This document shows, piece by piece, positions 11,169 through 64,000 of a stretch of 64,000 bases of DNA. The DNA is from Ramazzottius varieornatus (lineage: Eukaryota > Animalia > Tardigrada), in NCBI GenBank assembly GCA_001949185.1, contig BDGG01000013.1, positions 1,065,226 through 1,129,225 of the forward strand, in the 5' to 3' direction. How positions within the stretch are numbered: the stretch's first letter is position 1; the number at the start of each line of letters is the position of its first letter. A model generated the notes under the pieces. It was not told where the DNA came from, searched no databases, and saw nothing but the letters and a program-made list of their open reading frames with translations. The translations under genes and the position numbers were made by a program.

Positions 11169-11178
11169 ATGCTTGCTT

Positions 11179-26181: not shown

Positions 26182-26183
26182 TA

Positions 26184-32174: not shown

Positions 32175-33793
32175 TCAAAGTTTCACTTCAGTTGGAAAGT
32201 TTTCCGAAGGGTGAAATTCGTGCGTGATCGCATCGCCATGAACCTTGACTATCCGCATACCCGCGGGATCGCTGGACATGGCTACTTCGCCATTGGGAAA
32301 GTGATCAAGTGTCATCCCGATGGCTGTGGTAGTGACGACTTCGAGTTCGCCATTCGGTCCAGCCCGGCCCTGAGCATTCTTGTGGTAATGCCCACAGAAA
32401 CATGCTTTGATGCCTACAAGGAAGCTTTTCGGTCAAATGCGGACAAAATTACTTTTGGAGTGCATGTGAGAGTCGGGACAGAGTGCATGATCGTTTTTCC
32501 CTAACAGCGCACGCTCTCAGCCAATAACAACGGAAACGTGCGCCGCTTGGAAGAGCAACATTGTCGAGTGCTCTAAGTAGCGCACGTTGCGAGCGCTATC
32601 GGTTGGTTTGCGTGTGCCACTTGGGATAACGATCTTGACGTTGACCAGATAACCAAAGGACCTGCGTCTATGAGCTTTGGCAAGTACTGCTGCCGGATCT
32701 CGATATCGGCGTTGAAGTACTCCGTCTTCTCATCGGGACTTTGGATGAACCAGGAGATGTGTTGAAAAATGATGGCATGCTGGATAGCTTTGCTCTGCAA
32801 ATCCGCTTTTGCCCTAGCGATCTCGGCCTCAAACCACTTGAAAAAAACAAGCTGAAGAGTGAGAAAAGACGCTGGCGCCTTCGAAGAGAAAAAGGCCATG
32901 TTAAGTAACGAGAAGGCTTCGTGTGAAACGTTTTCGAAGGAAGATACCTCGTCCACAGTTTTCAAAAACTGTGAGTTTATGCATATGCAGCGGACTCCTC
33001 GAGCGTCGAACGTGTAGTAGTCTGGTCCAAAGGTTTCTTTGAAGTGATCTAGATCAGCTTGACCAGGAGTATTTTGGATGTCGTGGTTGCCCGGTACAAG
33101 CACGATGGGAATTTTAGGGTTGACTTCGTTCAGTGTTATGAGGAAGTCTTTCTCTTGCGCCTTCTTCAGCTCGTTGACTGAAACGAAAACAGGTTCGCAC
33201 ACTGGGCGTAAATTCTTCTGGCACTGCTGCTAATGCGCAGCCCTAGAGCTACTTGGCCCCTAGTCACCTACTTCCAAATTCATGGACAAGATCGCCGCAA
33301 ATGACGAAGAACGCCGGAGGAATGGGTGAGATGGATAGTCTGTTGATATCGTCCACTGCCAACCGCATCAACGCCATGTCTTCTTCCCACGTTATCTCTG
33401 TAAAGTCCGTCTTCTTCCTTAGCCATCCGTCAAACATGCCGAACTACGCGTAGAAAGCCAAACGTGTAAAGAACATAATATTACGTTGGACTGATGCTAT
33501 TGATAGCATTGCGTGCAAGCCAAAAACAGAATTATCACGCCAAGTCGCGCATGGCGTCACAAACTTGAACCGCAACCATCAAATCGAATTGTGAGCTCAT
33601 AGGCAGTTGACGATAATTTATGGTGACAAAAATTGCCTACCTGTGGATCGGCGCCCTGAATGAAGTAAAACGGCCCTCTCCATGCGGTATCTGCAACGTG
33701 AACATCACTAAACAAGTCCAGCGCACCTTCAGACCAAGTATTTCGAAAACATACCGTTCTTGAAGGCGTGTAGCGGGCTTCGGAGTCGGACAT
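32175..33793 (-). CDS. CPPED1: Calcineurin-like metallophosphoesterase CPPED1
   Basis: GPFYFIQGADPQ|FGM, FFVICGDLV, VPGNHDI, IIFQHI, CFCGHYHKNA, VVTTTAIG over ~5 exons; stop at 32175-32177. Confidence 0.85.
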
Positions 33794-34686
33794 CCGGTGG
33801 TTGTGCATACTTGGAAGAGAGCTCGATCCCACTTGGGCGACGAGTCCTTGCTGGGCGCGAAAGCCCACTTCCGGTAGCCATCCCGCTCCTCCACAGGTAT
33901 TCACGCTTCCCGAAATAAAAAAGCAGCTGAGTACGAGATAATGTTCGTGTGGGGCGGAAGCACTCGAGACAGGCGAGACTTGACGGAGATAACTGCAAAA
34001 AAATTCTGATCCTTTAATTTATTGCATTAGCGTAAGTACGGAGTATCAAGTCTGCATTCTCTAGCCATACTTTGCTCACACTTAGTTGTACTGTAACAGT
34101 CCTTACCGCGGTTGTATCTTAAGGCTTAATTTAAGGCTTAAGAATGAACGAGGAGAAAACATTTATGCCCTTCTTTGTCCCACGACATTAAATCGGTCAA
34201 TCTTACTCAAAAAATGTGAGCGTGTGAGCTGACAACTCAGTCCGAGGGGGGAAGGTTCTGCACTCATGATGGGCGCTGGAGGCTTCGAGCGACCGAGCAA
34301 CGGAGGGGCGAAGCGCCGGAGTGCGAGCCGGCGGGGGGTTCAGAGGGCGCAGCCTCCGGACGTCGTTCGTGCAAACACTTCAGTCCAAGGGTGGAAGGGT
34401 TCTGCACTCATGGTGGGTGCTGGAAGCTATGAGCGACCGAGCAACGGAAGCGCGAAGTGCCCGAATGCGAGCTGGCAGAGTTTAGGTTTCACCGCGCCGT
34501 GAAGTTAGTGGAAGCAGACTAAATTTGTTGTATGTGATTTTGTGAGTAGATGACATGTTCTGAAGAAGTTTGTTCTGCCAGTTTTGCCTGAAGGATAGTC
34601 TTCAGTCTGCTGTTAGTAGCGATAACGATTCTGAGTAACAGAAGTCTGAATGAGCTTATTTGAAGATGGACGCATTATGAGGCTGT

Positions 34687-35460
34687 TTAGATGCGTTCCA
34701 CGATGTTCGGTCCTCGTTCGTTCGACAGCCAGTGACGGACGGCGTGGACAGTCGACGGGTTCTCGGTGTATGTCACTCCGTCAGGCTGTGGGTACAGTGC
34801 AGCTGAGGGATTGCTGTAGATGATAGGGTTTTTCTTCCTGCCACACTGCATCATCTTCTTCGGGTGGATGCTGATGCAAAGACAATAAGTAGATGCAATC
34901 AAGACCAGAACCACCGAACCGACGATAAAGAACATCTTCTAACCCGTAAAATATTCTTGTACAGCTGTAACGATGCCAGGAATCTTTGATTGGCTATCAC
35001 TCTTACCTCTGTCGGACAGCTCGTTGCCTAGATGCAGACGGCTCACTGCGACTGTTGCCGTCATCGGTACCATTTCGTGCCTTTGTAAGAGTACGCAATT
35101 TGACCAATCTCAATACGGTTGTTGGTAGGTAAGCAAGGAACAAATGTTGGCATAAGCGTATAACCGTCCAAAGAAACCGACCTGTTTTGGACAGCTGGTT
35201 CGTATCCACACTCTGTGTGTTTGACTGCGACCGTGCTGTTGACCACTTCACACTGGTAGGGAGCCGCTGTGTTTTCTTTGGAATCGATGGCTCTGCAGCG
35301 GTCAAAGCCTAGTAGTTGGGCTGCTCGGATAGATGATGATTGGGAATACATGGTCAGCAAAGCAGCGATGTTCTTTCTAGTGCTGCAGTCCATCCGTCGT
35401 AGCTCACAATGGATGACGTTGATTTTCACCATCACATTGTCGGATACGTACTGCTGATGT
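34687..35460 (-). CDS. Hypothetical Cys-containing single-pass membrane protein (partial, possibly disrupted)
   Basis: ORF 35061-35435 (Cys-rich, N-glycosylation sequons) followed by TM-bearing ORF 34687-34935 (FFIVGSVVLVLIASTYCLCI); the join is not resolved. Confidence 0.3.
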
Positions 35461-36504
35461 GAACTTTACCATTGTTGGTTAAGACGACCTACCGAGTAGA
35501 CTGGAGAAGCAGTTGTTTCAGGTTCAAAACGGGAAGTGCGATGTTCCTCCATAGGAGCACTCCACTTCCCGATACTCGCTGGAGTCTACACGCTTGACCT
35601 GATGTGGATGATCATCCCACGTGTTTCATAACATAAAAATATGATATGTTTAGAAACAATACTCTACACCCTGATCGGGCCAACTTGCTACCACTCATCA
35701 CGTCAAGCCTATCTCCGTGTGGTTAGTGCCTAGCTCTGAGATCAATTCATTTCCATTCGACGACCTGTTTGCCAACTTCTGGAAAATACTGACCAGAAAT
35801 CTTTTCTCGGAACGCCGGAACCCAAATTAAGCCAGGGGAGGTGCGAAATGAAAAGTACGACAACTTTCGCAAATTTCGTTTGAAGTTTTGAAAATTTTTG
35901 AAAATTGTTTTTCTCAGTTGACGTCTTGCAGTACTGTCAACGGGCATAATTAGAACATGGACTGAGCTACAAGAAAACATGCTGATATCACGAATTCGCT
36001 GATCTGCAAAAATTTAGAATTTTTTCCACTGAACAAGGTTTCCCGGCAAAATCGAAAAACTGGACGGTTTCAGTTCATTTGCCGAGTCAGTTCAGCGCGT
36101 TTGAAGCCTTCCTCGATCCTTACCGGTTACGCAAAGCAGTAGTGAACTGTTCCAAAGTAACTAGGGTAAGAGACTCAATTCTGGATGTTTTCAGAATACA
36201 TGTCGGTCGGTCTTCCACACCGGAAGTCGTTGCAGTCAAGTTTTCCGAACTGTTTGTAGGTGTAGTGAAATGTGGTATGGCTGAATTATGGGCGGCCGGA
36301 GCGGCAAAAGTGAGGTTGGTAGTCTTCGAGCCTGTTCAGACCTTGCTTATTTTTAGAGTTGGGAATTTCATCAGTGTTACATCGGTAAAATTTGCCAGTC
36401 TGAAAATAAGCAGGCTCTGAATAGGGTCGCAGACAGGCTCCCATACGGAATTTCACTAGTCCATGACTAGGAAAATCCGCCAGTCTCAAAAAAGACAGGA
36501 TCTA

Positions 36505-37794
36505 CAGAGGGTGTTCAAGCCAAGTTGTAACACTTTACTCAGAATTTCCTACACAATCCCATAAAAGGTATTCTAGTTCAGCAGGCGTTCTATCTGAAAG
36601 CCCTTTCTCTCTATCATCAACTCCACACGTCGTTTCCAGGATTGTAAAGCTCTCTCAATTTTTTCCATCGGAAGTTTGACCCAGGCTGTCTTGATTGCGC
36701 GCACTAAACCGGTATCGTCACGCGGCTTCTTGTTGAACAATAATCCCATGAAAATTCCACTTACTGCGAAATCCATCGGTGCCAGGTCCGGGCTGTTCCC
36801 GATCCAATGCTCTCTCGGAATGAACTTCACTTCGGACTGTCGAAGGTATTCCTGAGTTTTTCTGGCCTGGTGCGCGGGAGCGTTGTCCTGGTGGAGAACG
36901 ACTTTGTGAGCTTCCTTGCCGCAAAGCCGTGGGATTTCTTTTTCGATCAGCGGCTTCAGGACATTTTGGATGTACAAGTCGGCATTGATTTTAGCCCCAG
37001 ACGGACTGATGAACATCTTCGTGGGTCCACGGAAAGAAATTCCCGCGCAGCACATGATACCTTTGGGGTGCTTTTGTTGACAATTCTTCTTCCATTCTTT
37101 GCAGTTCTCCCATCCGCGAAACTTGTAGTAGACCTTCCGCTGACCATTCACGTATGTAGGGTAGACCGAGAACTCGTCAATAGTTACAATAAACTTCCAC
37201 TTCTCACCTTTCAAGTACTTGAGAAAATTCGGACCGCGGTCGAGCCGTTGCTGGGCTTGCTTGTTCGACAGAGCGTGCACGGGATAATTTTTCCGACATT
37301 CTGCCTCGCAAACTTTTGTGATATTATGAATCGTGCCCACCGATACCTTCTACTTCTTTGCCATCTGTCGTTGAGAAGGTGGATTCGGTTTATCGATGTC
37401 TTTGAAGACCTTCTTCTCAATGGACTTGATGTGATGTGGACGGGTGTTCTGCGGCGGAATTTCTTTTGGCTTCTTGTGAACTCCTTTCGTGGTATCTTTG
37501 TCCTTCCGTAAAATCCGACGGACTGTCCCATAAGATGCTGGATATCCCATAGCCGTAACTTCTTTGGTTATTTTCCTGAGCGATCCTACTTTTCGAGCGG
37601 TGGCCAAGATGGCCGCGACGGTTTCAGAACTAGTTTCTGAAGGCATTTGTAATCTTGACACCAAACATGAATTGACAAGAGAATCAGCGGTGTTTACTCT
37701 GCTAGAAATCAGCTGAGATGTGGCACAAGACTGTGAGAAAGCGTCACAGGCATTTTTTCTGCCAACTGCTACAACTTGGCTTGAACACCCTCTG
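36505..37794 (-). mobile_element. Tc1/mariner transposon, DD37D (maT) family, full length
   Basis: 25-bp perfect TIR CAGAGGGTGTTCAAGCCAAGTTGTA with TA on both sides; single transposase frame. Confidence 0.93.
36573..37647 (-). pseudogene. DD37D transposase with one in-frame TAG (37350-37352)
   Basis: MPSETSSETV.. HTH region, VTIDE, HQDNAPAH, SPDLAPMDF with 37 residues between the 2nd and 3rd Asp; the two ORFs are in frame across the stop. Confidence 0.88.
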
Positions 37795-37994
37795 TAAACA
37801 GCCTCGACAAGCAGTTCCATAATTTTGACCAAGTTACAAAACTGCATGTCGAAGACTATGCAGAATCGAAGACTACCAACCTCATTCTCGCCGTGCCGGC
37901 GGCCATACTCCAACGAGGCTCTTGATTCAGCCTGGAGTTACCCCAGCCTGCTCTGGTAACACACGTTCCCTCGAGAATCGAAAAAGGAAACGTA

Positions 37995-39141: not shown

Positions 39142-42100
39142 TAGCGATGTTCTAATATAGTAATATTATATTAAAGTAGATGATAGTAGATGGTTTGAGC
39201 ATCTACTATATTTAGTAACATTTAGTAAACAGGTTTAGGCTCCGGAACCCGATATTAATATTTTAGTAGCTTGAAAGTAGAAGTGCGATATTTTATTATT
39301 ATTAAGCTGTTCATCATCTGTAGTAAAATATATTTTACTATCCGGTTAACGGCACCGCTGGTTCAAAAAACAGCCTGTGCGCTGGTTGCTCAATGTGCGA
39401 CCACGCCCTATAAAGTGCGCCACACCATACCGATGCCTCTACAGCGGCACAGTAGGGCTACTGCCGTACTGCGAAATTGCGAATGAATACCGTATAATAT
39501 CATGCAGCTGCATACGGTGCGAAACTTTAACCGGCCATGTTAGAGAGTGTAGGTGCAGGATGCAAGCTGTACTACAGGAATTGCTACTGGCCTACTGCCT
39601 TCGACAAATTGTTTGTCTGTCCTCCTCTTATTTGCAAAGAACTGCTAGATTGTCAGAGAGTCATGAGACCACCGTCGCGGACAAAGCCTATAAAAGGCGC
39701 AAAGCAGAAGCTACCACCGGAAAGAGGGAAAGTTCCAGTAGCAGCTGCAATAGCAGCAAGCCCACCAGTAATCGACATTGCGGAAACCGACGACGGTTCA
39801 GACTCCGAAGATGAGTCGTCTCGACCGCCTTCGACATCGTCTTCCAGTCGATTTCCCGAAAGCATAAACTACCCGGTGGTCAAAAGAAAGCTTCTGCAGT
39901 ATGGCAGTACTAGAGGATGCTGAGACGGGTAAGTCAACGTGTAAATCCTGTAACCATGAAGCGAAGCCTGCTGGCAACACCGGAAACGCTGTGTCCCATC
40001 TGAAGAACCGTCATCCCGACGCATTTGCCAAGTATGAAGAGCAGGAAAAGCTTCGTAAAGACCTTAAGAAGAAGAAGCAGGACAAGCCAGCCACAGGCAT
40101 TGCCATGATCCAGTCCAAGCTGAAATTTGAATCATCAAATCCGTACGAGCAGGGAAGTTTGAGGTAAGTCGGCCTTTGCTGTTGCTTGTTGCTGTTTCTT
40201 TCTGCTCTCTCCGTCGATCTACTTCAGGCTAATTATTTGTGCTTTCTGACTGTAGATATCGAACGATCCTGCGCGAACGGGCCTTGTGGGTTTTAAGGAC
40301 AACGGCGACTCCATCCTTATGCGCGAATCCGGCTACCCAACGTGCTTTCGTGAAGCATGATCTTCGTTCCCCTGCTTTAGGAAGGAAAGCCCTGAATACG
40401 GAAATGGATAAGGTCTATGAGCAGAAGCTTGGTAACATGAAGGCAGTGCTTTGTCGTGCCACGAAGATATCTCTCTCTACAGGTGAATCGGAATTAGCAC
40501 GGACGCAAACAAATTTGCAAGACTATTCGTTACGTGGCGCACATTTTCACTGTTATTTGCTGAAAGTCTGCGCCATTATGACGAGCAGACTTAATGACAT
40601 TAACTGTTGTCCCAAGTGGCGCCTGCTCCGGTTTTTTTGGCTGAAAGTGTGCGCCAGCTAGAAAAATGATGTCGTCCGAATTTCTCACTGACATGACAGT
40701 TAATTTTAATCTTGAGCGGTTACTATTTTGACTGAGATTGACGTTTAGTGTTATTTATTTATAGACATCTGGACTAAACGCGGAATGTCTGAGTCGAAGC
40801 TGGCGGTAACGGCACGGATGTCTGATCATCTCACGAAGACGATACGAAGGATGATCCTGGCATGTCGCACTTTTCCGAGTCCACACAGTGCCGCTCGATT
40901 ATTCAAGCTTACGATGGAGATTTTGGCTGGGTGGGAGATTCCTTCGTACAAGATATCCGCCGTATTGACAGACAACGGTTCAAACATGGTGGCCGATTTC
41001 AAAGCCCTCGTTCAGTCGAATAGTCCGGTAAATTCTGACGAGTCAGACGAGGAAGAAGCACAGCTGAGCGTACTTTCAGCTGAAATGGAAGACGCGAACA
41101 CGCAGCAACAGGTCAATGAGTACATGAGGTTCGAGGGTGAATGCGAGACCAAGTTCGACGGAAGGTAATTTTCTCTTACTGCGCTTTGTCCATATATAAT
41201 TCTTAGGCAAACAAAAATTGACAGGATGGATCTTCGAGTGGCGCACGCTTTCAGGCGATAACACTGTCAAACTGCGCGACACAAGAAAACCTTTTTGTCT
41301 AGTTTGTTTGCCGAGCTTCAACATCACGTCCATATGGAATAAACGAATGTTCTGCTTTTCGAGCATTACGGTCAACCGCACATCAGTGTGAATTCTTTTC
41401 TGTTGCAGAATCAAGCGTCACAGTTGTACCATCCATCGACTGCAGACCGCGGTTCGAGCATTCGAGAAGGATGAAAAGCTGAAGCCGATCATCAAGAAAG
41501 CCAGAATTATAGTCAAGACTTTCCGAATGTCTCACGTAGCCACGGGTGAACTTCTCAAAGCTACCGGGCTGACATTAATCGCAGATGTCTCAACCCGATG
41601 GAATTCTACTCTGCTCTTTCTGCGACGACTTGATGAAGTACGAAAACCCGTGAACGAGATCATGGCTCGTCACTTGAAGATCCCTGGTCTAACTCCTGGT
41701 GAATGGTTCATCATAAAATTTATCATACGTCTACTGGAGAAGCTTAATACGGTCAGCAAGTCTTTGAGCTATCCCTTTATGATTTCTGATGAAGTCAGAA
41801 ATTTTTGGTTCGATGTCGTATGTATTGAGTATTCACAGGTTGCGGACAAACTCAGCGCGGATAAGGAAGCGACCGTCCACCGAGTTCACTTTTACATGAA
41901 CGGACTAGTCAGCTCGACTTTTCAAACTTCCATATTGAGAACCCATTCGATGAGGCAATTAGCGCCAACTCAGAAAGATAACAAAATGTGCTGTAGTATG
42001 TCACTTCAAGCTTTAATTTTCTCGCCCTACACTTTCCTACGAGAAATCTTACTAAAAACTACAATCGAAATCTATCTTACTTATGGTGGTGTACGGTGAT

Positions 42101-43088
42101 CATGTTTGTCGTTCAGGTCATTCTTGCCATGGATTCAGAGCTGTCGCGCGTGCTGGGATATGTGATAGATGATTGCAACCCAAAGTTCGATGCTGTATAC
42201 ATTGCGAGCACATTTCTCCATAAGAAACTGAGACTTGCATTGCCACAGCGACTGTCTAGTCTTGCTTCGAGATGGCTGTCATTGAAAAACTTTAAGTGGT
42301 ATGAGGAGCCCACGCAAGGTAAACACATACCGGTCACATGCCATACCTAGTTTCTATGGGGGTCAAAAACGCAGCACCTCGCTTCAGAAACATTGCCAGA
42401 ATCAAAAACGTAGCACCTCGCTTCAGAAACATTGCCAGAATCGACTGCACTGAATGCGAACAGTAATCCAGATGGTATTGACGACTTGGATTTCTTCATC
42501 GATGCAAGTTCAGAAGTCACGCAACAGAAATCTCCATTTGACTTAGAAGTTCAGACCTATGTAAGCCTTCCTGTCGGCTCCGACGACAACGTTGAAGACA
42601 GCCCGGAAGTCTTCTGGATACAGAATGCTGATAAGTTCACTCTGTTGAGTCGTTTCGCTTTGGACATCCTGGCCATTCCCGCTGCTTCGAGTGCGCCCGA
42701 AAGAGTCTTCTCTATCGCATCGGCGGCGACTACGGGGAAGGGAAACAGACTAGCTGGTCACAATCTCGAAAGAAAAATTCTCTGTCTCCGAAATTCAGAG
42801 TACTTGCCCGATCTTGACGATTGAGCACTTTAGACGGTCCGAGCAAATACTGGGGAGCATTCTTGCTGGCCTGATTGATGTGATTCTGATTTTTTAGATC
42901 TTCTGTCGAGCTCTCCGATATTAAAATATATTTTAATAACGAACCTCCAAAGCTTCTACTATAGTAATATTTTAGTAAGTCAGGCAGAGGTTTTACTATA
43001 GTAGTTCGGAGTTAGTATGACTTTAGCAGACGACGGATATTTATTTTTATTATATTAGATGTCATTATCCCATATTAGAACATCACTA
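39142..43088 (+). mobile_element. hAT transposon, full length, with a decayed intron-containing transposase
   Basis: 17-bp TIR TAG(C/T)GATGTTCTAATAT; 8-bp TSD GCTGAACA at 39134-39141 and 43089-43096. Confidence 0.93.
39660..42824 (+). pseudogene. hAT transposase (BED finger, DDE core, dimerization domain), frameshifted
   Basis: SAVWQY*/CKSC..GNTGNAVSHLKNRH BED finger split across frames; DIWT, LTDNGSNMV, CTIHRLQ, DVSTRWNST, LAIPAASSAPERVFS; 39-bp tandem duplication 42363-42440. Confidence 0.85.
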
Positions 43089-43617: not shown

Positions 43618-45308
43618 ATGGAGCAGCGATACGTGCGCGGAGCACTCATCGTCTTCGAAGGCTTGGATCGATCGGGCAAAACCACTCAAGTGAATCGACT
43701 GCTTCAGGATCTCGAAGGAACGAAAGAACGATATCCATATCGTGGTATGAGATTCCCAGGTAGGAAAGTAATCAGAATGCCGTGGAACTCTTGAGCAGAC
43801 TTTTGCTTTCGTGCAGGGTGTATAGCTCTTTTTCTACAGACAGAACACCAGCGAATCCGATCAACATTGAGATATGCGACTACCTCTCCAAGAAAAAAGA
43901 GCTTCCTGCCAGAGAAGCGCATCTTCTCTTCACGAAACAACGCCAGAACCAAAAGTAAGATTCATCGTGCAGATATCTGGTTATCTGACATTTTGACGCT
44001 TTTACGGAATCTGTAACTGATAAACCAATAAACTACTTTACAGTTCCAATAATTTCGGACAGAAGTTTAAATTGTGCGTGTAATTGTACCCGAGGTGTAC
44101 GGTTCATAGAATATACGACCCGGGGTACAAATACACTAACATACTAGACTTCTATCGGAAATGAATGGAACTTTGACGTAACCAAAAAACTGCACGGGTA
44201 GGGATGCATTTTCCACACTGAATGATTATGTTGTTCTCTAATCTCGCAATCGTAGGGACGAAATGGAAAGGTTCCTGCAGAACGGTACAACCCTAGTCGT
44301 GGACCGCTATTCTCATTCCGGAGCTGCTTATAGCGCTGCAAAGGTACGCATTTCTTAGTACGGTCTGGGAGTGCTTAAAAGAAACTGGACCCTAGGCTAA
44401 CGAACTTGCCTAGTCGTTCTTCCAAGTGGCGCACGGTCTAGGCCAGTAACACCGGAAATGTACTTCACTTGGGAAAAGTCTTGTCGAGTTTGTCTGGCGA
44501 GTTCCCGGTTAGCGCGCAAAATCGTATTTGCAGGGTCTTCCTCTTGACTGGTGTATGGCTCAAGAAGAAGGTTTACCCAAGCCCGACCTGGTCATTTTTT
44601 TGGACCTATTCGCTGATATCGCGAAAAATCGGTCGGGCTTCGGTGAAGAACGCTTCGAAGAAGAACCCTTCCAGAAGAGAGTGTACGAACAATACATGCA
44701 ACTGCAAGACGAGACCTGGCTGGTAATATTTCTTATCGAACTGGACTGACGTATTCATTTGCAAAATTGGTAAACAAATACGATCAGATCGTTTTCTCAG
44801 GTGGGCACTTTACCAGCCAGTTACACTGAAAACGTGCGTCACTAGGAAATCAATGCTGCTGATTTCTTCAAGTGGCGCACATTTTCTATCGAACTGGCAG
44901 GACGAGTGCGTCACTTGGAGAATCTGACACGATTTTTCAGTCAGGTGGCGCACGATGTCGATGTTGTTGGTGGAATGCGTGCGCCACTTGGGGAAACGAT
45001 CTTCTTGAGTTTGTTTACCGAGCTTTCCTTTCACACGTGAATGTCAAGATGCATTTGTTGTTGGTTACTAGAGGGTGAACGCTTCTAAAACCGAAGAAGA
45101 AATCGCAGCAGAGGTGCGACAAGCGGTGTTGCGTGTCATTGAAGAGTGTCGTGAGAAACCTATCAGCCACTTCGGCGACAAACAGGAAGAAACGAATCAG
45201 CTTCAGTTGGCCGTGCCCCATTTACCGCATCACCAGTGTACTCCCACCAAGTCCCAGCAGTCATCCAAAGAGCCCGGAGCATCATTGGTCGGATGTGAGG
45301 TTAAATAG
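43618..45308 (+). CDS. DTYMK: Thymidylate kinase, 5 exons
   Basis: RGALIVFEGLDRSGKTTQ P-loop, RFP|DR, LVVDRYSHSGAAYS, GLPKPDLVIFLD, GFGEERFE. Confidence 0.92.
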
Positions 45309-50149: not shown

Positions 50150-51258
50150 CTATCGGTTAGACTTGGCGACACGTTCGAGTTCGTCTTTTTTCTTGATAGC
50201 ATAGCTATTAGAAGATTGCTGCGAAGAAAGAAGACATCCGTTAGCCTTTTTGTTCTGATACGCATCATCTAGCCCTTCACCAGATCTGAGAAAACAGGAA
50301 GCAACAACAAAACGTACCTTGCTTGCGTTAATAAGTTCGTCAGCCAAGCACTCGGCAATGGTCTTGATGTTCCTGAAGGCCGACTCGCGAGCTCCAGTGC
50401 ATAAAAGCCAGATGGCCTGATTGACTCGTCTCAACGGAGACACGTCCACAGCCTACGACAGAAAAGAAATGACATCAGAGAGAGGAAAAAGAATAAAAAG
50501 AAGTGGATAGCAGTTCAATGAAATCCCAGTTTCATTTCACTCAGTTGCCGGCAAATGAATCTGTACAAGATCGATACCTCAAGTGGCGCACGCTTCAAGC
50601 CAAAAGCGATAAAAATGTGCGCCACTTGAGACCACAATCTCGTCGAGTTAGTCCCAGTGGCGCTCATTTCAGCCAGTAACAGTGAAGACGTGCGCCACTC
50701 GATCTGAAGCGTGATGACTGGATTGACTTACCTGTCGACGGACTGTACCAGCACGACCGATACGGGTAGAATCTTCTCGTGGACCAGAGTTGATGACTGC
50801 GTTCACCAGAATCTGGACTGGATTCTCACCCGTCAGCAGATAAATGATCTCTAAAGTGTGCTTGACGATACGGACAGCCATCAACTTCTTGCCGTTGTTT
50901 CGACCGTGCATCATCAGCGAGTTGGTCAAACGCTCAACGATAGGGCACTGGGCCTTACGGAAACGCTTGGCGGCATACCGACCAGCTGAATGCGGCAGAA
51001 ACTTCGAGTGCTTGTCCTTGACGGCGATGTAATCCTAAAGCAGAATCACACTTTGCCCAAATTCCCCCAGACGAGCTACAAGCGAAAGCTTACGGTCAGA
51101 GCCATGTCGCTGACGTTGATTCCCACTGTAGACCATTTTCCAAACAGCTTGATCTCCTCTCCTGGTGTGTCAGGAACGGTGATGCCAGCTGGCATATCGG
51201 TCTCCTCCACAACAGCTCCTCCAGCGGCATCACCCTCCACACCCCAGTTATCAGCCAT
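50150..51258 (-). CDS. RPS5: 40S ribosomal protein S5 (uS7), 4 coding exons
   Basis: [79 protein letters not shown]. Confidence 0.97.
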
Positions 51259-51843
51259 GCTGAACCGAGAATCCTGGAAGAGAAACGAACAGCTGCAACT
51301 GAAGCCCGAGTAATCAACAATCAGCGCTAGCACCCAACAGCGGCTGGGCGAACGACATCCCGGACAATGCTCGTGCTGCGGTGCTCGGATCCACAAACTA
51401 TACCAATTGATAGTTAACCTGAAGCCGGACTTACCTTTTACGCTCTCAAACGAATCCAAAGAGATGCAGGATATCCGTGAACAATCCTGGAACGAAGAGA
51501 TCTTCTGGAGAAACCAGCCGGAGAGGCAGAGAACTTCGTTACCGTAGCTGAGTGGGCGGGTGCAAGTTCTGGAAATAAACGTGGTTGTTTTGATTAGTCG
51601 AAGCTACAAGGGGGTGGATTTGATTGGTCCTACACTGCACGCCACCTATACAAATATCAGCAACCAAATGGCGAGATGTGCGCTATCGTATTTCTAGTGC
51701 ACAAGTTGAACTAGCACGGCTTGGTCTGTACTACGTGAGGGTCTACAACACTACCCTTCGCACCGAACCGGAATCCCTTGACGGCCACGGTACAAAACTG
51801 AGTACTTAAAAAATTCGGACTGTTTGGTGTTTATTTATATTAA

Positions 51844-52777
51844 GGGCTTACAAAGATAGGTTACACCGCTGGTGGAATTGTAACGCTGGTGTAATTGGCT
51901 CCACCCAGACCGTTACGATTGGCCTATTTATTCCACCAGACATTATACTTTCGGTGTAGTTACGAGTCGCTCCGGAACGACTCGTAATCACACCATATGC
52001 AATCAACATCCCGAGTGCTCCTCTCCGAACCTCCAAATGTCCCTTCCATGACGAAGTTTCTCGCTGCTCGTCCTACTAGTGAGTGTATGGTGGTTTCTCC
52101 GACATCAAATATCTCATAATCCTCCACTCGTACTTACCTGCAGTGCGGGGCTTTCAAAGCAAGCCGTTACTAACTGGTCAAGAAAGTTTTCTGGGCGTAT
52201 CCACCAAAGTAGCTGGTGAAATTACATCACCACGCCAGCTTAGTCTTTGTGAGCCCTTGTTATACGGATTGCGAGCGACAGCGCACTAGCACAATTCGTT
52301 ACGCACAGGAACATTGTGACGTCATATGTAAACATTGTGCGACTCTTTTAACACAGAGCCTACGAGACGAACTAGTTCCTATGGTGTCACGATGTTCCTG
52401 TGCCTATCAAATTGTGCTAGTGCAGATCACTTCGCAATCTGTATATTTCCAGATTTTACAGTGTACGACAATATTAACCGTTGGAAATGGTCGTAATTCT
52501 GCAGCTGGAGCTCCTTCCCAACTCAGCGAATGAGAATTATATTTTGCTGCATGCGCAAATTTCATTGGCTTCATCCATCATGCTCCCTCCAACACCCATT
52601 TTCAACGGCTTATTTTGTCGTACACTAAGGGCCTACAGAGATTAGACTGGCTCGTGGTGTAACTACACCAACTACTTTGGTGGATACGCCTAGAAAATTT
52701 GGGTGAAGGGTGGAGCTTACAAAGATAGATTACACCGCTGATGGAATTACAACGGTGTAATCTATCTTTGTAAGCCC
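51844..52777. mobile_element. PIF/Harbinger-like MITE complex with a nested Tc1-like MITE (52459-52626) between RpS5 and TRNAU1AP
   Basis: GGGCTTACAAAGATAG.TTACACCG ... CGGTGTAATCTATCTTTGTAAGCCC inverted ends with TAA/TTA flanks. Confidence 0.55.
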
Positions 52778-52963
52778 TTACTGTATTTTCCGATTTTTCC
52801 TGCTGTAGACTGTAGTCCTGTTTGGCGCTTAGTCTGTTTCCTTTCTTGAAAGTCGCGGTCGGACTAACGAGGTGAACTAGGTTGTCTTTTTGCAGATAAC
52901 GGGACGGATAACTCGGCTGGCCTAAGGAAGCTTCATAGCTTTGGGACAGACGGTCAAGCAACG

Positions 52964-54995
52964 ATGGCCACCAATGTCCTGTGGGTGGGCGATTTGGACG
53001 TGATGCATGACGAATACTTCCTCCGTGCAGCGTTAGGTACCTTCGGTGAAAGCGTCTTGAGCATCAAGATCATCAAGAACAAGCAGACAGGGTTGTCACA
53101 AGGCTACGGATTCATTGGTATGGTTGGAGAGCAGGGCCGAAAAGAAGACACGTTAGTCGGGTTTGAGCCTGAAGTTATCGCTGGATTTCTCAGCTTGATT
53201 AGTTGAACAACTGTGTTGCTTTTGGCAGAATTTCGCGATGACGGAACTGCGCTGAAATGCCTGCATTCTCTCAACGGGAAACCGATGTCGGGCATCCTGC
53301 CGGTACGTTACACAACGCAGTAACGGATTTTCAGTTACTTGACTTTCTTTTCTCTGCAGATCAAACGATGGAAGCTGAACATGGCCCATCAAGGAAGAGA
53401 CAATCCTCTCGTGCCAGATTTTGCCATCTTCATCGGCGATCTCGAATACAGTGTGGACGATCTGCAACTGTTCAACTTCTTCAGCGCGAGATACTCTTCC
53501 GTTAAATCCGCTAGAGGTATCACAGAAACGATAAATAAAATTGGTCGAGAATGAGAACTTTTCACTTACTGTAAATATTCGCTGCGTCGGCGCAGTACGT
53601 CATCGTACAAGTGAAGTACAGCCCCGGTCCAGTTTCGCGGATTGCGCAACCCCCTACGGGGGTGCCTCGTCATGTAAGTGTACGTGCTGCGCGGACGCAG
53701 CGAATATTTACAGCAGTTCCGGCGGTCAATCAAGGAAATTTGATCGGCAAGCAGACTTGTGGTTTATAGCGGTTGTCTATCAACCAAATTTGACGTTGCT
53801 ACGTTTCGAATTCAGATTTGCAACCGGAAGTTGCACTCCAAATCCCATTTCTATTTCGAATATTAGCATTGTCTTCTTTTTCTAGTCGTTGTTGACGAAC
53901 ACGGAGACAGTCGTGGATACGGATTCGTTCGCTTCGCAGAAGAACTTGACCAACAACGCGCTCTGAATGAGATGCAAGGTGTGACCATCTCCAACAAACC
54001 CATTCGCGTCAGCATCGCCGCACCTAAGAAGTAAGCCTGACCCTTTGTTTCCCATCACTCTTCACGGTAGATTTGCTTCTTCTTAAGCCCTCCCGCATTT
54101 TGCTACCGAAAATCTTGAGAAATAAACGAGCCAAATTCTGCAGCTGGTGAGCAAACTCAACGAGACCAGTTTTCCAAGTGGCGCACTGTTTGAATCGATT
54201 TCACCGAGAACGTGCGCCACTTCAGAAAACAATCTGTTGGACCATTTCCGTAACGCACGTTCTCAGCTAACTTGATAGCACCGAGAACGTCCGCCTCTTG
54301 CCATAACGGTCTTGTGTTAATCTTTCAAGAGATCCACCATTATTTCACAGGTTTTTCTTCCCATAGTAAATTAGGACAAACACCAGAGCAACAAGCCCAG
54401 ATGTCTTCGGAGCAACTGGCCAACTACTACGCGCAGTACGTCCAGTACCAAGCCTACTACCAGCAGTGGCAGCAGCAGATGAGCACCAACTACGAACAGT
54501 ACTACAAGCAATACTACCCCGGCTACTACGGCCAGCCACAAGCCCAACAGCAGGCTGTGCCGCAGCAGCACCTGCACATGCAGGCTCAACAACAGCAACA
54601 ACACTTTCCTGGACAGTATCCAGTCTCGCAGATGCAGCAGCCTCAGGCAGCGCCTGTGATTCAGCAAGCGCAAGCGGGGTTGTTGAGAACACCGGGTGCG
54701 CAGGTGGTCGATGAAGGGAACAAGCTTGTTCGTAAGTGACGGATTTTCAATTTAGCATGGAAAGATGCTTGTTGTATAGCAGCTTTTATCTTTTCACAGC
54801 TCATGATCAAACTAAGGTGGACAGTTCGCTGCAGAGCGCGCGGAAATTCATTGAGAAAAGCTATGTAAGAAAACGAAAGGAAATTAAACGGAAGTACTAA
54901 GATATTGATGACTGGAATGTCTGGTTGGTTTGCAGGCTATAGATAGGAGTTACAGCGACGTCTGGTGGAAAAGACCGGGCGTAGAACTTTTGTAG
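52964..54995 (+). CDS. TRNAU1AP: tRNA selenocysteine 1-associated protein 1 (SECp43): two RRMs plus Tyr/Gln-rich region
   Basis: LWVGDLD, IKIIKNKQTG..QGYGFI, FAIFIGDL, SRGYGFVRF..QQRALNEMQG, KPIRVSIA, YYAQYVQYQAYYQQW. Confidence 0.85.
53569..53713. mobile_element. MITE (CTGT..AATTCGCTGCGTCCGCGCAG family) in a TRNAU1AP intron
   Basis: CTGTAAATATTCGCTGCGTC.GCGCAG / CTGCGCGGACGCAGCGAATATTTACAG. Confidence 0.75.
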
Positions 54996-55214
54996 AAGTG
55001 TCTAGCTAACCAGCTTGATTGTCATTGTTGCGAACATGTTTTTCTCAAAGGAAAGCAATGAGCAGTCTTTTCCTTGGTATGGGCAGTCTGAGAATAAGGC
55101 ACGCTTATTCTCGGACTGCGCTAAACTGTTAACCTTCCCATATTGATGATTCAGTTCGACTTTGCAGAAACTTTGTCACTTGTTACAGATTGAGACTTAT
55201 CAGTGGAGATAGTT

Positions 55215-58200: not shown

Positions 58201-59425
58201 TCAGAACCACTAGCTAGTTAGTAGAAGGTGTGGTAAAGTGATTGCGAAAGCAGGTCGGAACATAAACATACGAGACTTCCAGAAGCTGCAGGAGGGCAGG
58301 AGATCGATCGAAGAACTCTTTAGGCTCGGTAAAGGAGATCACACCGTTCTTGTCGGTGTCAATGGCTTCAAAGAGGTTCTTTGACAAGTAGGAGACCTGT
58401 TCTGTACTCAGCACGAAAGAGTTCTTGTTGATGGAGCTCTTGATGACGGCGCTGAATTCTTCCTCATCGATCCCACCATTTCCTGAATAAAACAAAACAG
58501 TATGATTGAATTTGTTGTAAACGGTAAAAGGGAACACATCACGTCCTTGTTCCGAAGTTTTCAACCTCTGTAACGACTTTAGCGCGTCGGATAATCAAAT
58601 GTCAAGTCGATGCAGATGCTCAGATTCCACTGCTCAACCATTTTCCTGTCGGTCGCTATTCTGCGTTCATTTTATGATAGTTCTTTTCTCCAAATTTTGT
58701 GATTTGCCTCATTCCAGAACGGCTTCAATTGGACGAGGAAGTCCGTAAGGGAATTCAATTTTGGTTACCGTTTGCGTCGTAGAGATCGAAGAGCAGGCGG
58801 AACTTTTGGCAGAAACATCCGGTGTAAAGTTTCCGTAAACATTCGACCATGTCCGCTCGGCTGACGAACCCTTGCTTGCTGCTGTCCAGAAGAGAGAACA
58901 AGCATTCGGCAACTTGCTCCTGGGAAAAATGAGGATATCGATCAATCCAGCAGCGTTTTACGAAGACACGATCCAGATCACTTACGTTTTCCGGCTTTAG
59001 AATCTTGACGAATGAATCGACCGAAAATCGGTGCAGTGCTTCGTCCTTTTCCATCCTAGCTTTGACTTTGTTGAAGTGAGCCAGATCGTCGTGAGACCTG
59101 CAAATGAAACAAAATTAAATCCAGTCAATCTGTACCCAGAACATTTCGGCCTTTTCGACGGTCGTTTGAAATTGAACGAGGAATTAATCGGCGCAATTTC
59201 TCACCTTTTGGAATTGCGGCAATGGGCAAAAGCACCACCGTACAAGTGACCGGTACATACGACATCTTGTAAACCGGATGGGACTCCCAAAATGACTTCC
59301 TTGTTATTGATACTTGTGGATCCAGGACTGACTAGAGTGAAAGGACCGCTAAAGGATACAAATGAGCCTTCCGCCATAAAAAGGGTGCTCGGTTCCTCAT
59401 CTGGGATCTTCGAAGGTATATCCAT
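55215..59425 (-). CDS. NOX5: EF-hand NADPH oxidase (NOX5-type), multi-exon
   Basis: EF hands (DSSKQGFVSRAD, DANGNGGIDEEE, DTDKNGVISFTE); heme His pairs (HK..GHVIMH; YSHL..FVH); EWHPFTISS, GPYG, AGIGVTPFASIL, VFYCGP, FYKESF C-terminus; no peroxidase domain. Confidence 0.9.
57985..58218 (+). mobile_element. Helentron-associated/DINE-like element, complete copy 3 (NOX5 intron)
   Basis: GGCCGAGC...GCTCGGCC subterminal inverted repeats, AGTGGT-CAGA-ACCACT 3' stem-loop, CTAG end. Confidence 0.65.
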
Positions 59426-59711
59426 TGCAAAACTCTTCGTAGAAAACAGACATATAAACGTTTTTCCGCGAACACAATCATAATCCCTGCAGGTCTAATG
59501 AATTACTAAGCTGATGGTGAACAGTTCCAAACAACGACCACAGCTCGGTCCAGCCATTGTTATTATATTCTTTCAGCGATAAGAAATACACTGCTATGCG
59601 AAAACTTTTCAAGTTTTGTACATGACGCACCCGCTAAGTGAAAACCATCACAGAGAACCGTGAATGGAATAACATTAGTCTTCGCTCCAGACACAGTCTG
59701 AAACAAGACTG

Positions 59712-59743
59712 ATAACAACAATAACAACAATAACAACAACAAC
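59712..59743. repeat. (AAC/AAT)n microsatellite
   Basis: ataacaacaataacaacaataacaacaacaac. Confidence 0.7.
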
Positions 59744-59969
59744 GAAATATTTGAGGAAATGAGCCGCATAAAAAATCATTCCACTCCTTCGGAGAAACAA
59801 GTCGAACATGGCTCGACTAAGTCATAGAAAAATTTCTATAAAAATTTCGGCGGGGAATTAAGTTCAAAATGAGATACTTCAGCGTCATGAAACGACTAAC
59901 AATAAACGATTCAAGAAAAATATAGCAAAAATGTAACACGTCCTACTGCTTTTTGGCTCTCCGATAGGC

Positions 59970-61511
59970 TCAGCTGACGTTTCGCTTCTCCGGTGGAACG
60001 TACTCCATGTCCAGCGCTCTGAAGATATCTTCCTCGCTGTTGATCTTGACCGTACCTTCAGACAAGAAAAAGCAAAGTTTGCCAATCACCCGAAAGATTC
60101 GTCTACTGCTCGTATCAAGTACTCTACCTTCATTTCCGGTGTCGCCTTCGTCGTTCCGACTTTTATGCAGTCCATACTCGTTCAGCTTGTACCCTTTCGC
60201 CTTTGCTTTCGAGTTCAACTCTTGGATGAACAAGTCATTGCCCGTCCATTTCAGAATAGCCGAGTAATACTGGCTTTCAGCGTACAGATACAGCGCCAAG
60301 TAATGATGGTCCTCACCTTTCCCTCCATGGTTTCCATTCTTTGCTTTCTTCTTCGCCGGTCCATCTTCCTCTTCACCATCTTCTTCTTCCCCATCTTTCT
60401 GTCCACCACTGCTGGACGACGACATAATACCTTTCAGCCTGTTCTCGCCTTGAGTCATGACTTCCACCAACGTGCCGTTCTTCTTCAGAGTGTCCACGAC
60501 TTCAGCCATCAGCTCCTTGCTGCTTTCGCGGGACCTGTGGGTGACGACGGCGACAATTTCAAGAATGGTGTCATCTTTGCGGCGGTATGCACCACAGAGT
60601 GTCACTTCGAAGTCCTTGTGGAGTTTTTTCAGTTGACTTTCCATCGATTCCTCAATCTGAAACAGCAATCCACGTTAAAGTCAGCCATCCAACGGGCGAA
60701 AAGCGGCATATCAATACAGGTCCGTGCCGTACTGAGGGCTATGCCGTGTATCTGAACGTACACTGAATAAGCATATGACGTCACTACGCCAATTGAAGAA
60801 CCACCCCGCTCATCACGATGTACACAAGAAAACTGACGTCATGCTTCACAGCCCTGCAGCGGCTAAGCAACGCATGACGTCAATAGACAGCTAAAATCAT
60901 CGTTCGACAACACCAAACTGAACTGAACGCGGTGACTTCACTAATACTCTCAAACGGATTTCGGGGTGCTAAATCGGGCCCGAAATGGATACCTTCTTTG
61001 CTCGCGCTCGGGAAATGGGTTTCTCGATGTCGTCCAAGTACCTCAGCGCGATCTGTTGCGATTCCGTCAGCTTGTCCGAGTGCTTCTTCAGGTCTTCGAT
61101 GGTGTGGATGCCTTGTTTCTTCAGCTCCCTCGCTCGAGCAATCCCGATGCCTGGCACGCGCGATAGCTCACCCACTTCTTGCGCGTCTTCGTCGTGTTCA
61201 GCTTCCTCCTGCTTCTCGGTCTTTCCACGAACGAGGAATTCGTCTATCTGCGCAGCGATGCCTTCACCGATGCCGGGAAACTCTTGGGCTTCTTTGCCAC
61301 TCTTGACGCGATGCTTGTGTTCGGCTAAGATCTGTGCTGCTTTGCGGTAAGCGATGCTCTTGAACATTTCTTTGTCAGCGTTCTTCTCGTGATCAGCTAG
61401 TTCGAGTAATAAATCGCAGATGTCCTTGTTGGGATTGTCTCGAGCAGCTTCAGTCTCGTCGCGCTTGCGCTTGTTGGATTCAGCGGCGGTGGATTCCTTC
61501 TCGTCACTCAT
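59970..61511 (-). CDS. DNA polymerase beta-like (family X) protein lacking catalytic residues, 3 exons
   Basis: Colinear with Pol beta: ELADHEKN, AYRKAA, HhH FPGIG and VPGIG, CGAYRR, WTGN, GYKLNEY, SEEDIFRALDMEYVPPEKR; exons ~61511-60993, 60658-60129, 60058-59970. Confidence 0.9.
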
Positions 61512-62179
61512 TCTTCCCGCAGTTGGTCCACTCTTTTCGATGCAGTCTTGAAGTAGAGTCGTCCTGTGAGCTCCCGACACCTGCAAAGCATTGGAAATAC
61601 CGAATTAGCGGTTGAGAGATCAGCCGGACAGCGAGGACGGTCACGAGAGATGCCGTGTTCCTTAGCCTTTATTTTTCCCAAGCGCGGGCCATGCCGTACT
61701 CTCGTCTCCCACTTCTCTGTCTCAGTGATAGGCTGACAACCGAAATTTTTCAAGGTTTTCTGCAAGGCCGTGCTAAAACCCCAAACCCCTGTCATAATTT
61801 GTAAGAGGGAATCGGAAGACGAGAGTTTAGCACCTCGGCCAGGACCCCCGGCGCCCGCGCTTGTGATTTTCCCCAGTTTTCTACGTTGGGAAAATACTCG
61901 TAGAGACTTCTGGAAGTGATGAAGTGAGCTGTCGAAGTTGATTGATTGTTGATTTGTTTACTTTCTGGGACTGGAATAAATGACTCGAATCAAGAATCAA
62001 TCAAGAACACCGTGGGAAAGTTTTCCACTCCCTGAATCCTGACCCTGAGTTTTCTAAACTTTTCTTGAAGCTCCGGGTAGTTCTCCTCAGTTGCTTTACC
62101 TTCTGCAGAAATCCGTGATCGCATCCTCTGGTAAAATACCCTGACGTTGTGACGGTTGTGCTCCTTGTATTTTCCGATC

Positions 62180-62680
62180 ATGTTCTCCATGTGGAATGGA
62201 GCTCCACCGGGAGGAGGACGAGGCGACCCTCGCAACCAACGCGGTCCATCTCAGCCCAATCCTGCCAACAACATCAACCTTCCTTCTGGCACAGCTCACC
62301 TCCTTTACGAACTGGACAAGAGGTTACTTTTCTGGCTACGAGATGGTCGAACCTTTATCGGGATACTCAAAAGTCTGGACCAGTTCGGCAATGTCGTGGT
62401 AGCCGAGACGATAGAACGCATCTACGTGGACAAAGAGTACGGCGACATCGAACGAGGCATCTGTATCCTACGAGGCGAGAATCTGGTCTTGGTTGGAGAA
62501 TGGGATGGTTTCAGAGAGCAACAGTCGGGTACTAGAAGTCGAGACATTCAGTACATCCTAACAAGGCAGGCGGAGGAGGAAGAGAAGCGGCTGAAAGTTA
62601 AAGAAGGCTTCCAGAAAGCTATGCGCGAACGTGGACTGAATATTCGCGATGATCCTGAGGACGACTTGTTCATCAAGTAA
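62180..62680 (+). CDS. LSM1: Sm-like protein LSm1 (mRNA decapping activator)
   Basis: GTAHLLYELDKRLL..LRDGRTFIGILKSLDQFGN..ETIERIYVDKEYGDIERG..ILRGENLVLVGE plus C-terminal helix. Confidence 0.9.
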   Translation: MFSMWNGAPPGGGRGDPRNQRGPSQPNPANNINLPSGTAHLLYELDKRLLFWLRDGRTFIGILKSLDQFGNVVVAETIERIYVDKEYGDIERGICILRGENLVLVGEWDGFREQQSGTRSRDIQYILTRQAEEEEKRLKVKEGFQKAMRERGLNIRDDPEDDLFIK

Positions 62681-64000
62681 CCAGTAAAACTCCCCTTTTC
62701 TCTGCAAACTTAATTCTTCTGTTTCTCTGCAGGTCATGTACCTGACTACAATACCGGAAGAATTTTCCGAAGGGAAGTTTTTGTTGGAGAATATATAGTC
62801 TGTGATGGAGATGGTTCTGTACTGCTTCGATTGGATGACGCAAAATGGAATTTTTACTGCTTTTATCTTTTCTGTCGTTTTTCCTAGTGACGAAACTGAC
62901 GATTTCGACTTGTCGGTCGCTTACTTCGGTCAGATTGCGAAAGAGCAATTAAGAGACACCCAAGGAGAGATCTTGGATCACAGTTGAGAGGTCGGCGGAA
63001 CAACCTCGGGATGATCGACACCTCACGTGGCGCACATTTCCAGTCAATAACCAAGAAAACTGCGCCACTTGAGATAACGCTATCATCTCGAGATTGTTTG
63101 CTGGCTTGCTTTCTGACCGGAGTTTTGAAAAAGTATATGGAGGATTTGATCATTTTCAAGTTTTACAAAATCGAAGTAATGTTTGTTAAGTTAGGGAACG
63201 CAAAGTGCAGTGAACCTCTTGAGAGGTAAAGTACACCAAATTATCCAAGCAGGAGCCACGTTCTGTTAGTTTTCTTATCGAGGTTTCCGGCTCGTACATA
63301 AATAAGAAAACCTGTCAGAGTAAATGGCAGACGTTTATCAAGTTTGTGTCGGTGAGCAAACACCATGTTCATTGGCGACAAGGGACCAGGAACAATGCTA
63401 GCTAAGGTTTACAAAGTTCTTTCGACATCTCGCGGCATATTTACGGTTGTTTCACCTTCGCAGGCACGAGCCAGCCAGATTCAACAAGACCTGCCTGACA
63501 CGGCAAACATCCGTTGACAGTTATCAGCCAGTGGTCTTATCAGTCGGGTCGTTGTTTTGAGGCTTTCGGCGCATCTTGCCCGTTCATTGATAGCGGGAAA
63601 CGTCAAACCTAACCGCTCCTTTCAACCAATCTTTTGAGAGCGACGGCACCTGATTATCAAGCTTTGTAAACTTCACCGATTAGAAAACCATTGTCAGCGC
63701 CCTAAATTATAGTTTGATAACGGCGGTTTCGAGGAAGAATTTGCATTTGACCCCGTCAATTTTCCACAGGCTTGCATCGTGACTGAATTCGAATTCACTC
63801 AAACACTTTCGTACCTTGTCTAACCCACTGGGACCGCGGCAAACAAGACGAGAGACTTTTTTGCTAGCGACGCAGGCTTCCCGTCAGTAACACGGATAGC
63901 GAAAACAACGTCGGCAAGCCTGTTCAACCCATGTGGCGCACGCTTTCATTGTTCTTGGCTGAAGTATGCGCTGTTCGGAGGAACAATCTTGGCGGGTTTG

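What the first reader, a model, noticed from the sequence alone, without database searches (positions are those of the whole stretch)
32505..63976. Fixed-spacer palindrome AAGTGGCGCAC-N25-GTGCGCCACTT in introns of housekeeping genes
Seen: 13 copies with conserved 11-bp arms and hand-counted spacers of 24-26 nt (mostly 25), although spacer sequence is highly diverged (weak oriented consensus ~TTTCAGCCAATAACA..GAAA). Locations: CPPED1 intron (32505, 32575), hAT transposase introns (40532, 40614, 41236), DTYMK introns (44424, 44870, 44943), RpS5 intron (50581, 50655), TRNAU1AP intron (54176), and downstream of LSM1 (63025, 63931). I found none in the first 32 kb (receptor/TE region) or in NOX5. 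Inference: conserved arms and length with a free spacer look more like selection on a bipartite protein-binding site or RNA hairpin than neutral MITE decay. It may be a mark for broadly or germline-expressed genes, by analogy with MITE-derived motif pairs in nematodes, or a splicing/chromatin element.
Basis: partly seen in the sequence, partly recalled or inferred. Interest (0 to 1): 0.8.

Follow-up and report, generated by a model that had tools for sequence, protein, structure and literature searches.

The report
Tardigrade MITE relics with conserved arms
The palindrome is the centre of an already catalogued 123-base miniature DNA transposon of a tardigrade whose old copies sit in introns; its 11-base arms have aged more slowly than the rest, which likely reflects the needs of the transposon itself but could mean that a host protein has adopted them.

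Summary
The motif is real: all 13 listed copies exist and arm pairs pile up at 24-26 nt spacing. It is not a free-standing bipartite site. It is the inner 11 bp of the ~56-bp inverted repeats of a 123-125-bp non-autonomous DNA transposon (MITE), published as ramVar1-0/-6/-7/-8/-16/-23/-26/-39 in a Ramazzottius varieornatus repeat library (PMC11071193 supplement). The 25-nt spacer is inherited, not free: 70% identical to consensus against 42% for random DNA. The window holds 17 units at 10 loci, six loci as tandem dimers or a trimer, one locus in the first 32 kb, and three units inside a mobile hAT transposon. One residue is unexplained: arms are 86% identical to consensus against 70% for spacer and outer repeat, and an arm-blind scan finds no armless copies. 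Subfamily differences explain part of this; a subfamily-free test leaves 73% versus 64% (p=0.15). The arm alone is also a published upstream motif, MRv-8. Verdict: known MITE; co-option as a host protein-binding site stays open at about 25%.

The parts
24955..25076 (.).
32464..32660 (.). Tandem dimer (units 32502, 32575; period 73; spacers in opposite orientation) in inferred intron 32414-32661 of the CPPED1-like gene (minus strand)
40494..40697 (.). Tandem dimer (40532, 40614; period 82) in inferred intron 40483-40764 of the hAT transposase
41198..41320 (.). Single copy (41236) in inferred intron 41165-41408 of the hAT transposase
44386..44508 (.). Single copy (44424) in the DTYMK-like intron spliced at 44341-44532
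44760..45027 (.). Tandem trimer (44798, 44870, 44943; periods 72, 73) in the DTYMK-like intron spliced at 44721-45071
50543..50738 (.). Tandem dimer (50581, 50655; period 74) in the RpS5 intron spliced at 50451-50731
54138..54333 (.). Tandem dimer (54176 with perfect arms; about 54250 with a decayed left arm) in inferred intron 54031-54366 of the TRNAU1AP-like gene
62987..63109 (.). Single copy (63025) about 0.25 kb downstream of the LSM1 coding end
63830..64000 (.). Tandem dimer (decayed unit about 63858, unit 63931), cut by the window end
39142..43088 (+). Host of three units: complete multi-copy hAT transposon with terminal inverted repeats and 8-bp target-site duplication
   Evidence: its left end resembles library entry ramVar1-394 (compared by eye)

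Best explanation
The palindrome is the core of old copies of a 123-125-bp non-autonomous DNA transposon (MITE) that was likely moved by a cut-and-paste transposase supplied in trans, and whose intronic copies are spliced out (shown for three introns) and are likely decaying without a host function. Anatomy (shown): 38-bp outer inverted repeat, 11-bp arm, 25-nt spacer (8-bp inner stem, 9-nt loop, 8-bp stem), 11-bp arm, 38-bp outer repeat. The spacer length is inherited from the master element (shown). The arms are invariant across the published subfamilies while outer repeat and spacer differ (shown), so they were probably needed for mobility, for example as a transposase-binding site (inferred). 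A mixed-subfamily sample then shows arms as the best-conserved part. Tandem units of period 72-82 probably arose after insertion by slippage at short matches between the two repeats or by fold-back copying (inferred). The superfamily (Sola) is the curators' label for one subfamily, and no autonomous partner was found.
For: Published consensuses carry exactly this arm-25 nt-arm core: 64 occurrences of the arm in 60 rows of the supplement, 58 rows element-related by my reading, 8 of them curated as DNA transposon, 103-125 bp, TIR '56 bp', '40 bp' or 'whole'. A profile built from window copies reproduces the full element. 276 contig records of a 53-Mb DNA run lie at 80% or better on one 60-nt half-copy, and their loose ends give the same spacer in both orientations and an end in CCC followed by A/T-rich letters. 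Spacer and outer repeat are each 70% like consensus, against 42% and 44% at random. Intron length minus element length is about 52-140 nt in 7 of 7 introns measured (boundaries within 3 nt), in the range of neighbouring short introns of 57-111 nt. Orientation to the host transcript is 5 sense to 8 antisense. Tandem forms are in the raw library (ramVar1-10, -25, -48, -50). MITE-to-tandem-array conversion is described for Xenopus Xstir and miDNA4 (PMC12628747, passages). Left-versus-right identity within a locus, which is independent of subfamily, is 64/88 for arms and 153/240 for the outer repeat, p=0.15.
Against: Arms 283/330 (86%) versus spacer 261/375 and outer repeat 356/510. The excess holds per locus: 9 of 10 against spacer (p=0.006), 9 of 9 against outer repeat (p=0.004). 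An arm-blind leave-one-out scan recovers 11 units above the null maximum with arms 208/242 and no new armless copy. The inner stem is only 64/120 complementary against 125/165 for arms. Only the arm, and no spacer or outer-repeat word that I could recognise, appears among 39 upstream motifs of this species (MRv-8). Nine of 10 loci fall in the gene-dense half (p=0.02), unlike other small repeats (about 12 versus 7; Fisher p 0.006-0.017). Target-site duplications are not clearly readable in the window copies.
Confidence: 0.7

Rival explanations
1. MITE origin, then co-option: a host DNA-binding protein (a domesticated transposase domain or a zinc-finger factor) binds the paired arms, and selection keeps arms and spacing in copies near broadly or germline-expressed genes, as with CERP2/CELE2 and HIM-17 in Caenorhabditis. 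Tandem units would add binding sites.
For: Arm excess in every test, significant in three and a trend in the subfamily-free one. Arm positions 2-5 are 93-97% conserved. The arm is upstream motif MRv-8, 312 sites, 3.9% (PMC11609603 Table S1). Six of 10 loci are multimers. A different hAT consensus, RV-B-P39.108, carries a dimer just behind a GT with arms 29/33 kept and spacers much diverged (by eye). Skew to the gene-dense half. Precedent in bioRxiv 2022.01.21.477252 (passages).
Against: No functional data. The subfamily-free test is not significant. Two tandem units have decayed arms. Any abundant repeat will surface as an enriched upstream motif, and the paper's main text never mentions MRv-8. 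Copies here are intronic, whereas the nematode sites are promoters ('intron' 0 times in that paper's main text). No matching motif stands in the H. exemplaris list, and no arm hit fell in other sheets of the repeat supplement. Other MITE families also sit in introns of the same genes. One window, 10 loci, with halves chosen after the fact.
Confidence: 0.25
2. The arms are kept because they pair as an RNA hairpin in the pre-mRNA that affects splicing or editing.
For: Three of 6 copies tested fold better than all 200 shuffles as single-stranded DNA; most copies are intronic.
Against: Of 143 arm pairs on the transcribed strand, 111 are unchanged, 19 broken on one side, 9 kept as G-U, 2 compensated and 2 broken on both sides; 9 of 28 is the chance share (p=0.84). 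Two of the 6 fold no better than chance. No Rfam match in the window. Folding follows from any inverted repeat.
Confidence: 0.03
3. The element creates introns (introner-like) by bringing its own splice sites.
For: In RpS5 and CPPED1 the element's outer end lies at or over the 5' splice site.
Against: In the other five introns the element starts about 10-107 nt from the donor, and 52-140 nt of intron remains after removing it. Three of 10 loci are not shown to be in introns. The RpS5 intron position is, from recall, shared with other animals.
Confidence: 0.02

Closest known systems
ramVar1-0/-6/-7/-8/-16/-23/-26/-39 non-autonomous DNA transposons of Ramazzottius varieornatus (PMC11071193, Tables S1 and S3)
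   Same: Identical 11-bp arms, 25-nt spacer with the same consensus, the same outer inverted repeat, the same length; tandem variants in the raw library.
   Different: Window copies are old (about 15-30% diverged), mostly multimeric, and two (24993, 63025) share an outer-repeat variant that I did not see among the listed consensuses. The paper's results section read here does not discuss this family or its arm conservation.
Sola superfamily (curators' label for ramVar1-7)
   Same: 4-bp target duplication recorded by the curators; G-rich termini; A/T-rich flanks.
   Different: Seven other curated subfamilies are left unassigned with TSD 'Unclear'; no autonomous Sola element with these ends was found in the readable cells.
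CERP2/CELE2 MITEs with m1m2 motif pairs bound by HIM-17 in Caenorhabditis (bioRxiv 2022.01.21.477252)
   Same: Abundant MITE whose inverted repeats hold a spaced motif pair; autonomous parent unknown.
   Different: There the pairs are promoters with ChIP, reporter and cross-species support; here copies are intronic or downstream and no binding or function is shown.
Xenopus Xstir and miDNA4 MITE-derived tandem arrays (reviewed in PMC12628747)
   Same: The internal part of a MITE is amplified into tandem units while the ends stay single.
   Different: Arrays here are only 2-3 units, with variable junctions and some spacer inversions.
Upstream motif MRv-8 (PMC11609603, Table S1)
   Same: Same sequence as the arm.
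   Different: Listed as an untested upstream motif; not linked there to a transposon or to a partner arm.

Membership tests
MITE / non-autonomous DNA transposon | Short and non-coding | tested here: met
   about 123 bp
MITE / non-autonomous DNA transposon | Terminal inverted repeats | tested here: met
   Left-versus-right identity 64% in outer 30 bp against 43% random; both strands hit the profile
MITE / non-autonomous DNA transposon | Many dispersed copies of uniform size | tested here: met
   10 loci in 64 kb; 276 contig records on one half-copy (not a copy number)
MITE / non-autonomous DNA transposon | Target-site duplication | tested here: inconclusive
   Ends too decayed; 3-4-bp near match at 24955 only. 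Curators give 4 bp for ramVar1-7 and 'Unclear' for seven others
ramVar1-0/-7/-23 family | Colinear match to the published consensus over arms, spacer and outer repeat | tested here: met
   Window-derived consensus and genome-wide loose ends agree with the printed consensuses, compared by eye
Sola superfamily | 4-bp target duplication and Sola-type termini (features recalled) | tested here: inconclusive
   Loose ends show CCC then A/T-rich letters; the defining paper was not held and PMC4455052 gave no end features
Sola superfamily | Autonomous element with a Sola DDD transposase and the same ends | not testable with these tools
   No genome held; terminal words hit only short consensuses and one nested copy in cells cut at 400 characters
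Co-opted MITE motif pair (CERP2/HIM-17 type) | Motif pair better conserved than the rest of the MITE | tested here: inconclusive
   86% vs 70% but 73% vs 64%, p=0.15, in the subfamily-free test
Co-opted MITE motif pair (CERP2/HIM-17 type) | Located at promoters or open chromatin | tested here: not met
   7 of 10 loci intronic, 2 downstream of LSM1, 1 apparently intergenic; chromatin state not testable
Co-opted MITE motif pair (CERP2/HIM-17 type) | Bound by a host factor and needed for expression | not testable with these tools
   No ChIP or ATAC data found
Structured non-coding RNA | Covariation or an Rfam match | tested here: not met

The most novel reading that the evidence does not exclude
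A tardigrade MITE has seeded a paired 11-bp protein-binding site, 25 bp apart and often multiplied into 73-82-bp arrays, into introns of broadly expressed genes and of other transposons, and host selection now keeps the arms. This would be an intronic counterpart of the nematode CERP2/HIM-17 system, perhaps a germline-expression licence that hAT transposons exploit, read by a domesticated transposase domain or a zinc-finger protein (the arm resembles, from recall, the 3' half of a CTCF site).
Probability: 0.22. Interest if true: 0.68.

Novelty: already known. Interest (0 to 1): 0.28.

Why it matters
As it stands, it ties a striking palindrome, and the published upstream motif MRv-8, to a catalogued and very common transposon family, which should be masked or modelled in tardigrade motif searches. 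If the arm excess proves to be host selection, it would be a second phylum with large-scale co-option of a MITE motif pair, acting from introns, and it would give tardigrade gene regulation, where few cis-elements are known, a directly testable element.

Tried and rejected
No whole genome is held, so the genome-wide scan was not run. The metagenome scan for the full arm pair with spacers 10-40 gave 33 loci, none with a 24-26-nt spacer (lengths 10-17, 22, 23, 29, 30), so these are unrelated hairpins. Tandem Repeats Finder did not report the arrays. Rfam gave 0 matches. Tc4 membership (CTNAG target, PMC11071193 section 6) was considered from partial flanks and dropped once the published ends showed the element runs about 8 bp further. 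The short lay gave no per-site variant table, so arm-versus-outer divergence could not be measured genome-wide. No listed run is on record as RNA; X4, X6 and X9 are guessed RNA, supported by spliced joints. Searches of earlier findings returned nothing. Paper searches for a described function of the motif found only the library entry and the MRv-8 listing. CTCF binding was not tested; PMC5094011 (passages) only places CTCF in the panarthropod ancestor. Rows left out: the two arm-decayed units are not in the 86% figure; six units (32575, 40614, 44870, 54250, 63858, 63931) fell below the arm-blind null maximum or were not recovered; chance-level pairs at 46982 and 33530-33558 were dropped.
Full report
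Observation. A scan of arm pairs over spacers 5-59 gives 14 pairs at 24-26 nt with at most 5 mismatches in 22, against 7 spread singly over other lengths. Three exact 9-bp pairs compare with none in 100 shuffles. All 13 listed copies exist, but only 50581 and 54176 have two perfect arms. A profile from 15 units finds 17 units at 10 loci: extra ones at 24993, 44798 and two decayed units near 54250 and 63858. Six loci are tandem, with periods 72-74 or 82 where measured (five junctions).

Organism and context. The window's LSm1 is 58% identical to a Paramacrobiotus protein and the DNA runs holding the window are 53-54 Mb. The repeat matches a Ramazzottius varieornatus library, so the window is from that tardigrade or a very close relative (inference). 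Guessed-RNA contigs splice out three element-bearing introns, two in the DTYMK-like gene and one in RpS5. Four more introns are inferred from GT..AG ends and frame. Three units lie in a complete hAT transposon at 39142-43088 with an 8-bp target duplication that has related copies elsewhere.

What it is. Read outward, the arms continue into a shared repeat of about 38 bp on both sides. The spacer has its own consensus in either orientation: 70% identity against 42% for random DNA. On one 60-nt half-copy, 276 contig records of DNA run X1 align at 80% or better, and their loose ends give the same spacer and an end in CCC followed by A/T-rich sequence (the tool warns that this is no copy number, and X1 and X2 are one sample). 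The supplement of PMC11071193 (seen: passages, section 6 and supplement rows; cells over 400 characters cut) lists the element. The arm occurs 64 times in 60 rows, 58 element-related by my reading. Eight rows are curated DNA transposons of 103-125 bp, all with exact arms and a 25-nt spacer. ramVar1-7 is labelled Sola, 123 bp, 4-bp TSD, 56-bp TIR; the other seven have TSD 'Unclear'. Tandem forms appear as ramVar1-10, -25, -48 and -50. The fixed spacing is therefore inherited from the master element.

How it works. The element is non-coding with long inverted repeats, so mobilisation by a cut-and-paste transposase in trans is inferred from established MITE biology; no autonomous partner was found in the readable cells. 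Removing the element leaves about 52-140 nt in 7 of 7 introns, like neighbouring short introns, so it inserted into existing introns and is spliced out. Orientation is 5 sense to 8 antisense. Tandem junctions are 25-35 nt of right outer repeat joined to left outer repeat, which fits slippage at short internal matches or fold-back copying (inferred). Similar conversions are reviewed for Xenopus Xstir and miDNA4 (PMC12628747, passages).

The residue. Arms match a leave-one-locus-out consensus at 283/330, spacer at 261/375 and outer 30 bp at 356/510. The excess holds in 9 of 10 loci against spacer and 9 of 9 against outer repeat. An arm-blind scan recovered 11 units above the highest of 10 null scans, with arms 208/242, and found no new armless copy, so choosing copies by their arms is not the whole cause. 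Subfamily structure is part of it: the published subfamilies differ in outer repeat and spacer but not in arms (by eye). The subfamily-free comparison of left and right halves gives arms 64/88 and outer 153/240, p=0.15, about 14-15% versus 20% per-site divergence by simulation. The inner stem is only 64/120 complementary, though the published stems are themselves imperfect. The arm alone is motif MRv-8, 312 sites in 500-bp upstream regions (PMC11609603; seen: passages and the whole supplement), and the main text does not mention it. Another hAT consensus carries a dimer with arms kept and spacers much diverged (by eye). Nine of 10 loci are in the gene-dense half (p=0.02), while other small repeats split about 12 to 7 (Fisher p 0.006-0.017). 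That rests on one window and a post-hoc split, and insertion preference or faster turnover of the receptor arrays could explain it.

Rivals. RNA hairpin: 2 compensated pairs of 143 and a chance share of G-U changes, no Rfam hit, and 3 of 6 copies folding better than all shuffles, as any inverted repeat would. Introner: the element touches the donor in two introns only. Co-option as a protein-binding pair has the nematode precedent (bioRxiv 2022.01.21.477252, passages), but there the sites are promoters with binding data; here they are mostly intronic and nothing functional was found.

Verdict. Identity as a known MITE family is near certain. Neutral decay with constraint only at the level of the mobile masters: about 0.7. 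Host co-option of the arms in some copies: about 0.25. Novelty: already known. Interest 0.28. Sola end features, the CTCF resemblance and the conserved RpS5 intron position are recalled and come from no call. Two supplement files of PMC11071193 (.aln, .nwk) were unreadable and long cells were cut, which bears on the search for an autonomous partner and for a Hypsibius counterpart. PMC4455052 and PMC5094011 were seen as passages only; other papers only as search listings.

Noticed in passing
window 39142-43088: Complete hAT transposon with terminal inverted repeats, 8-bp target duplication and an intron-containing transposase; related copies 1-6% different exist in the DNA run. Two other hAT consensuses in the published library (RV-B-P39.108, ramVar4-518) also carry nested copies of the MITE.
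   Followed up: partly
window 7192-11474: Element with reverse transcriptase and tyrosine recombinase ORFs and split direct repeats (141 bp and 157 bp): likely a DIRS/Ngaro-type retrotransposon.
   Followed up: no
window 28520-30009: Glycosyl hydrolase family 43 gene pieces, a family typical of bacteria and fungi: possible horizontal transfer (inference).
   Followed up: no
window 46563-47573: 336-codon ORF with a corticotropin-releasing-factor-family domain near its end: likely a neuropeptide precursor.
   Followed up: no
window 36503-37796: Element with matching inverted ends and a transposase-like ORF on the minus strand with no Pfam hit; Tc1/mariner-like by eye.
   Followed up: no
window 24335-26336, 44015-44189, 52457-52626, 53559-53713, 57988-58218: Several other MITE-like families, younger than the one studied, some also in introns of the DTYMK-like and TRNAU1AP-like genes.
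   Followed up: partly
window 24955-25076 and 62987-63109: These two copies share an outer-repeat variant not seen among the printed consensuses: possibly an older subfamily.
   Followed up: partly
window 51568-52782: One guessed-RNA run (X4) has a minus-strand CT..AC joint of 1213 nt linking the RpS5 upstream region to the stretch before TRNAU1AP: possible far upstream RpS5 exon at a head-to-head promoter.
   Followed up: no
window 59970-61604: DNA polymerase beta-like gene between the NOX5-like gene and LSM1, without a copy of the element.
   Followed up: no
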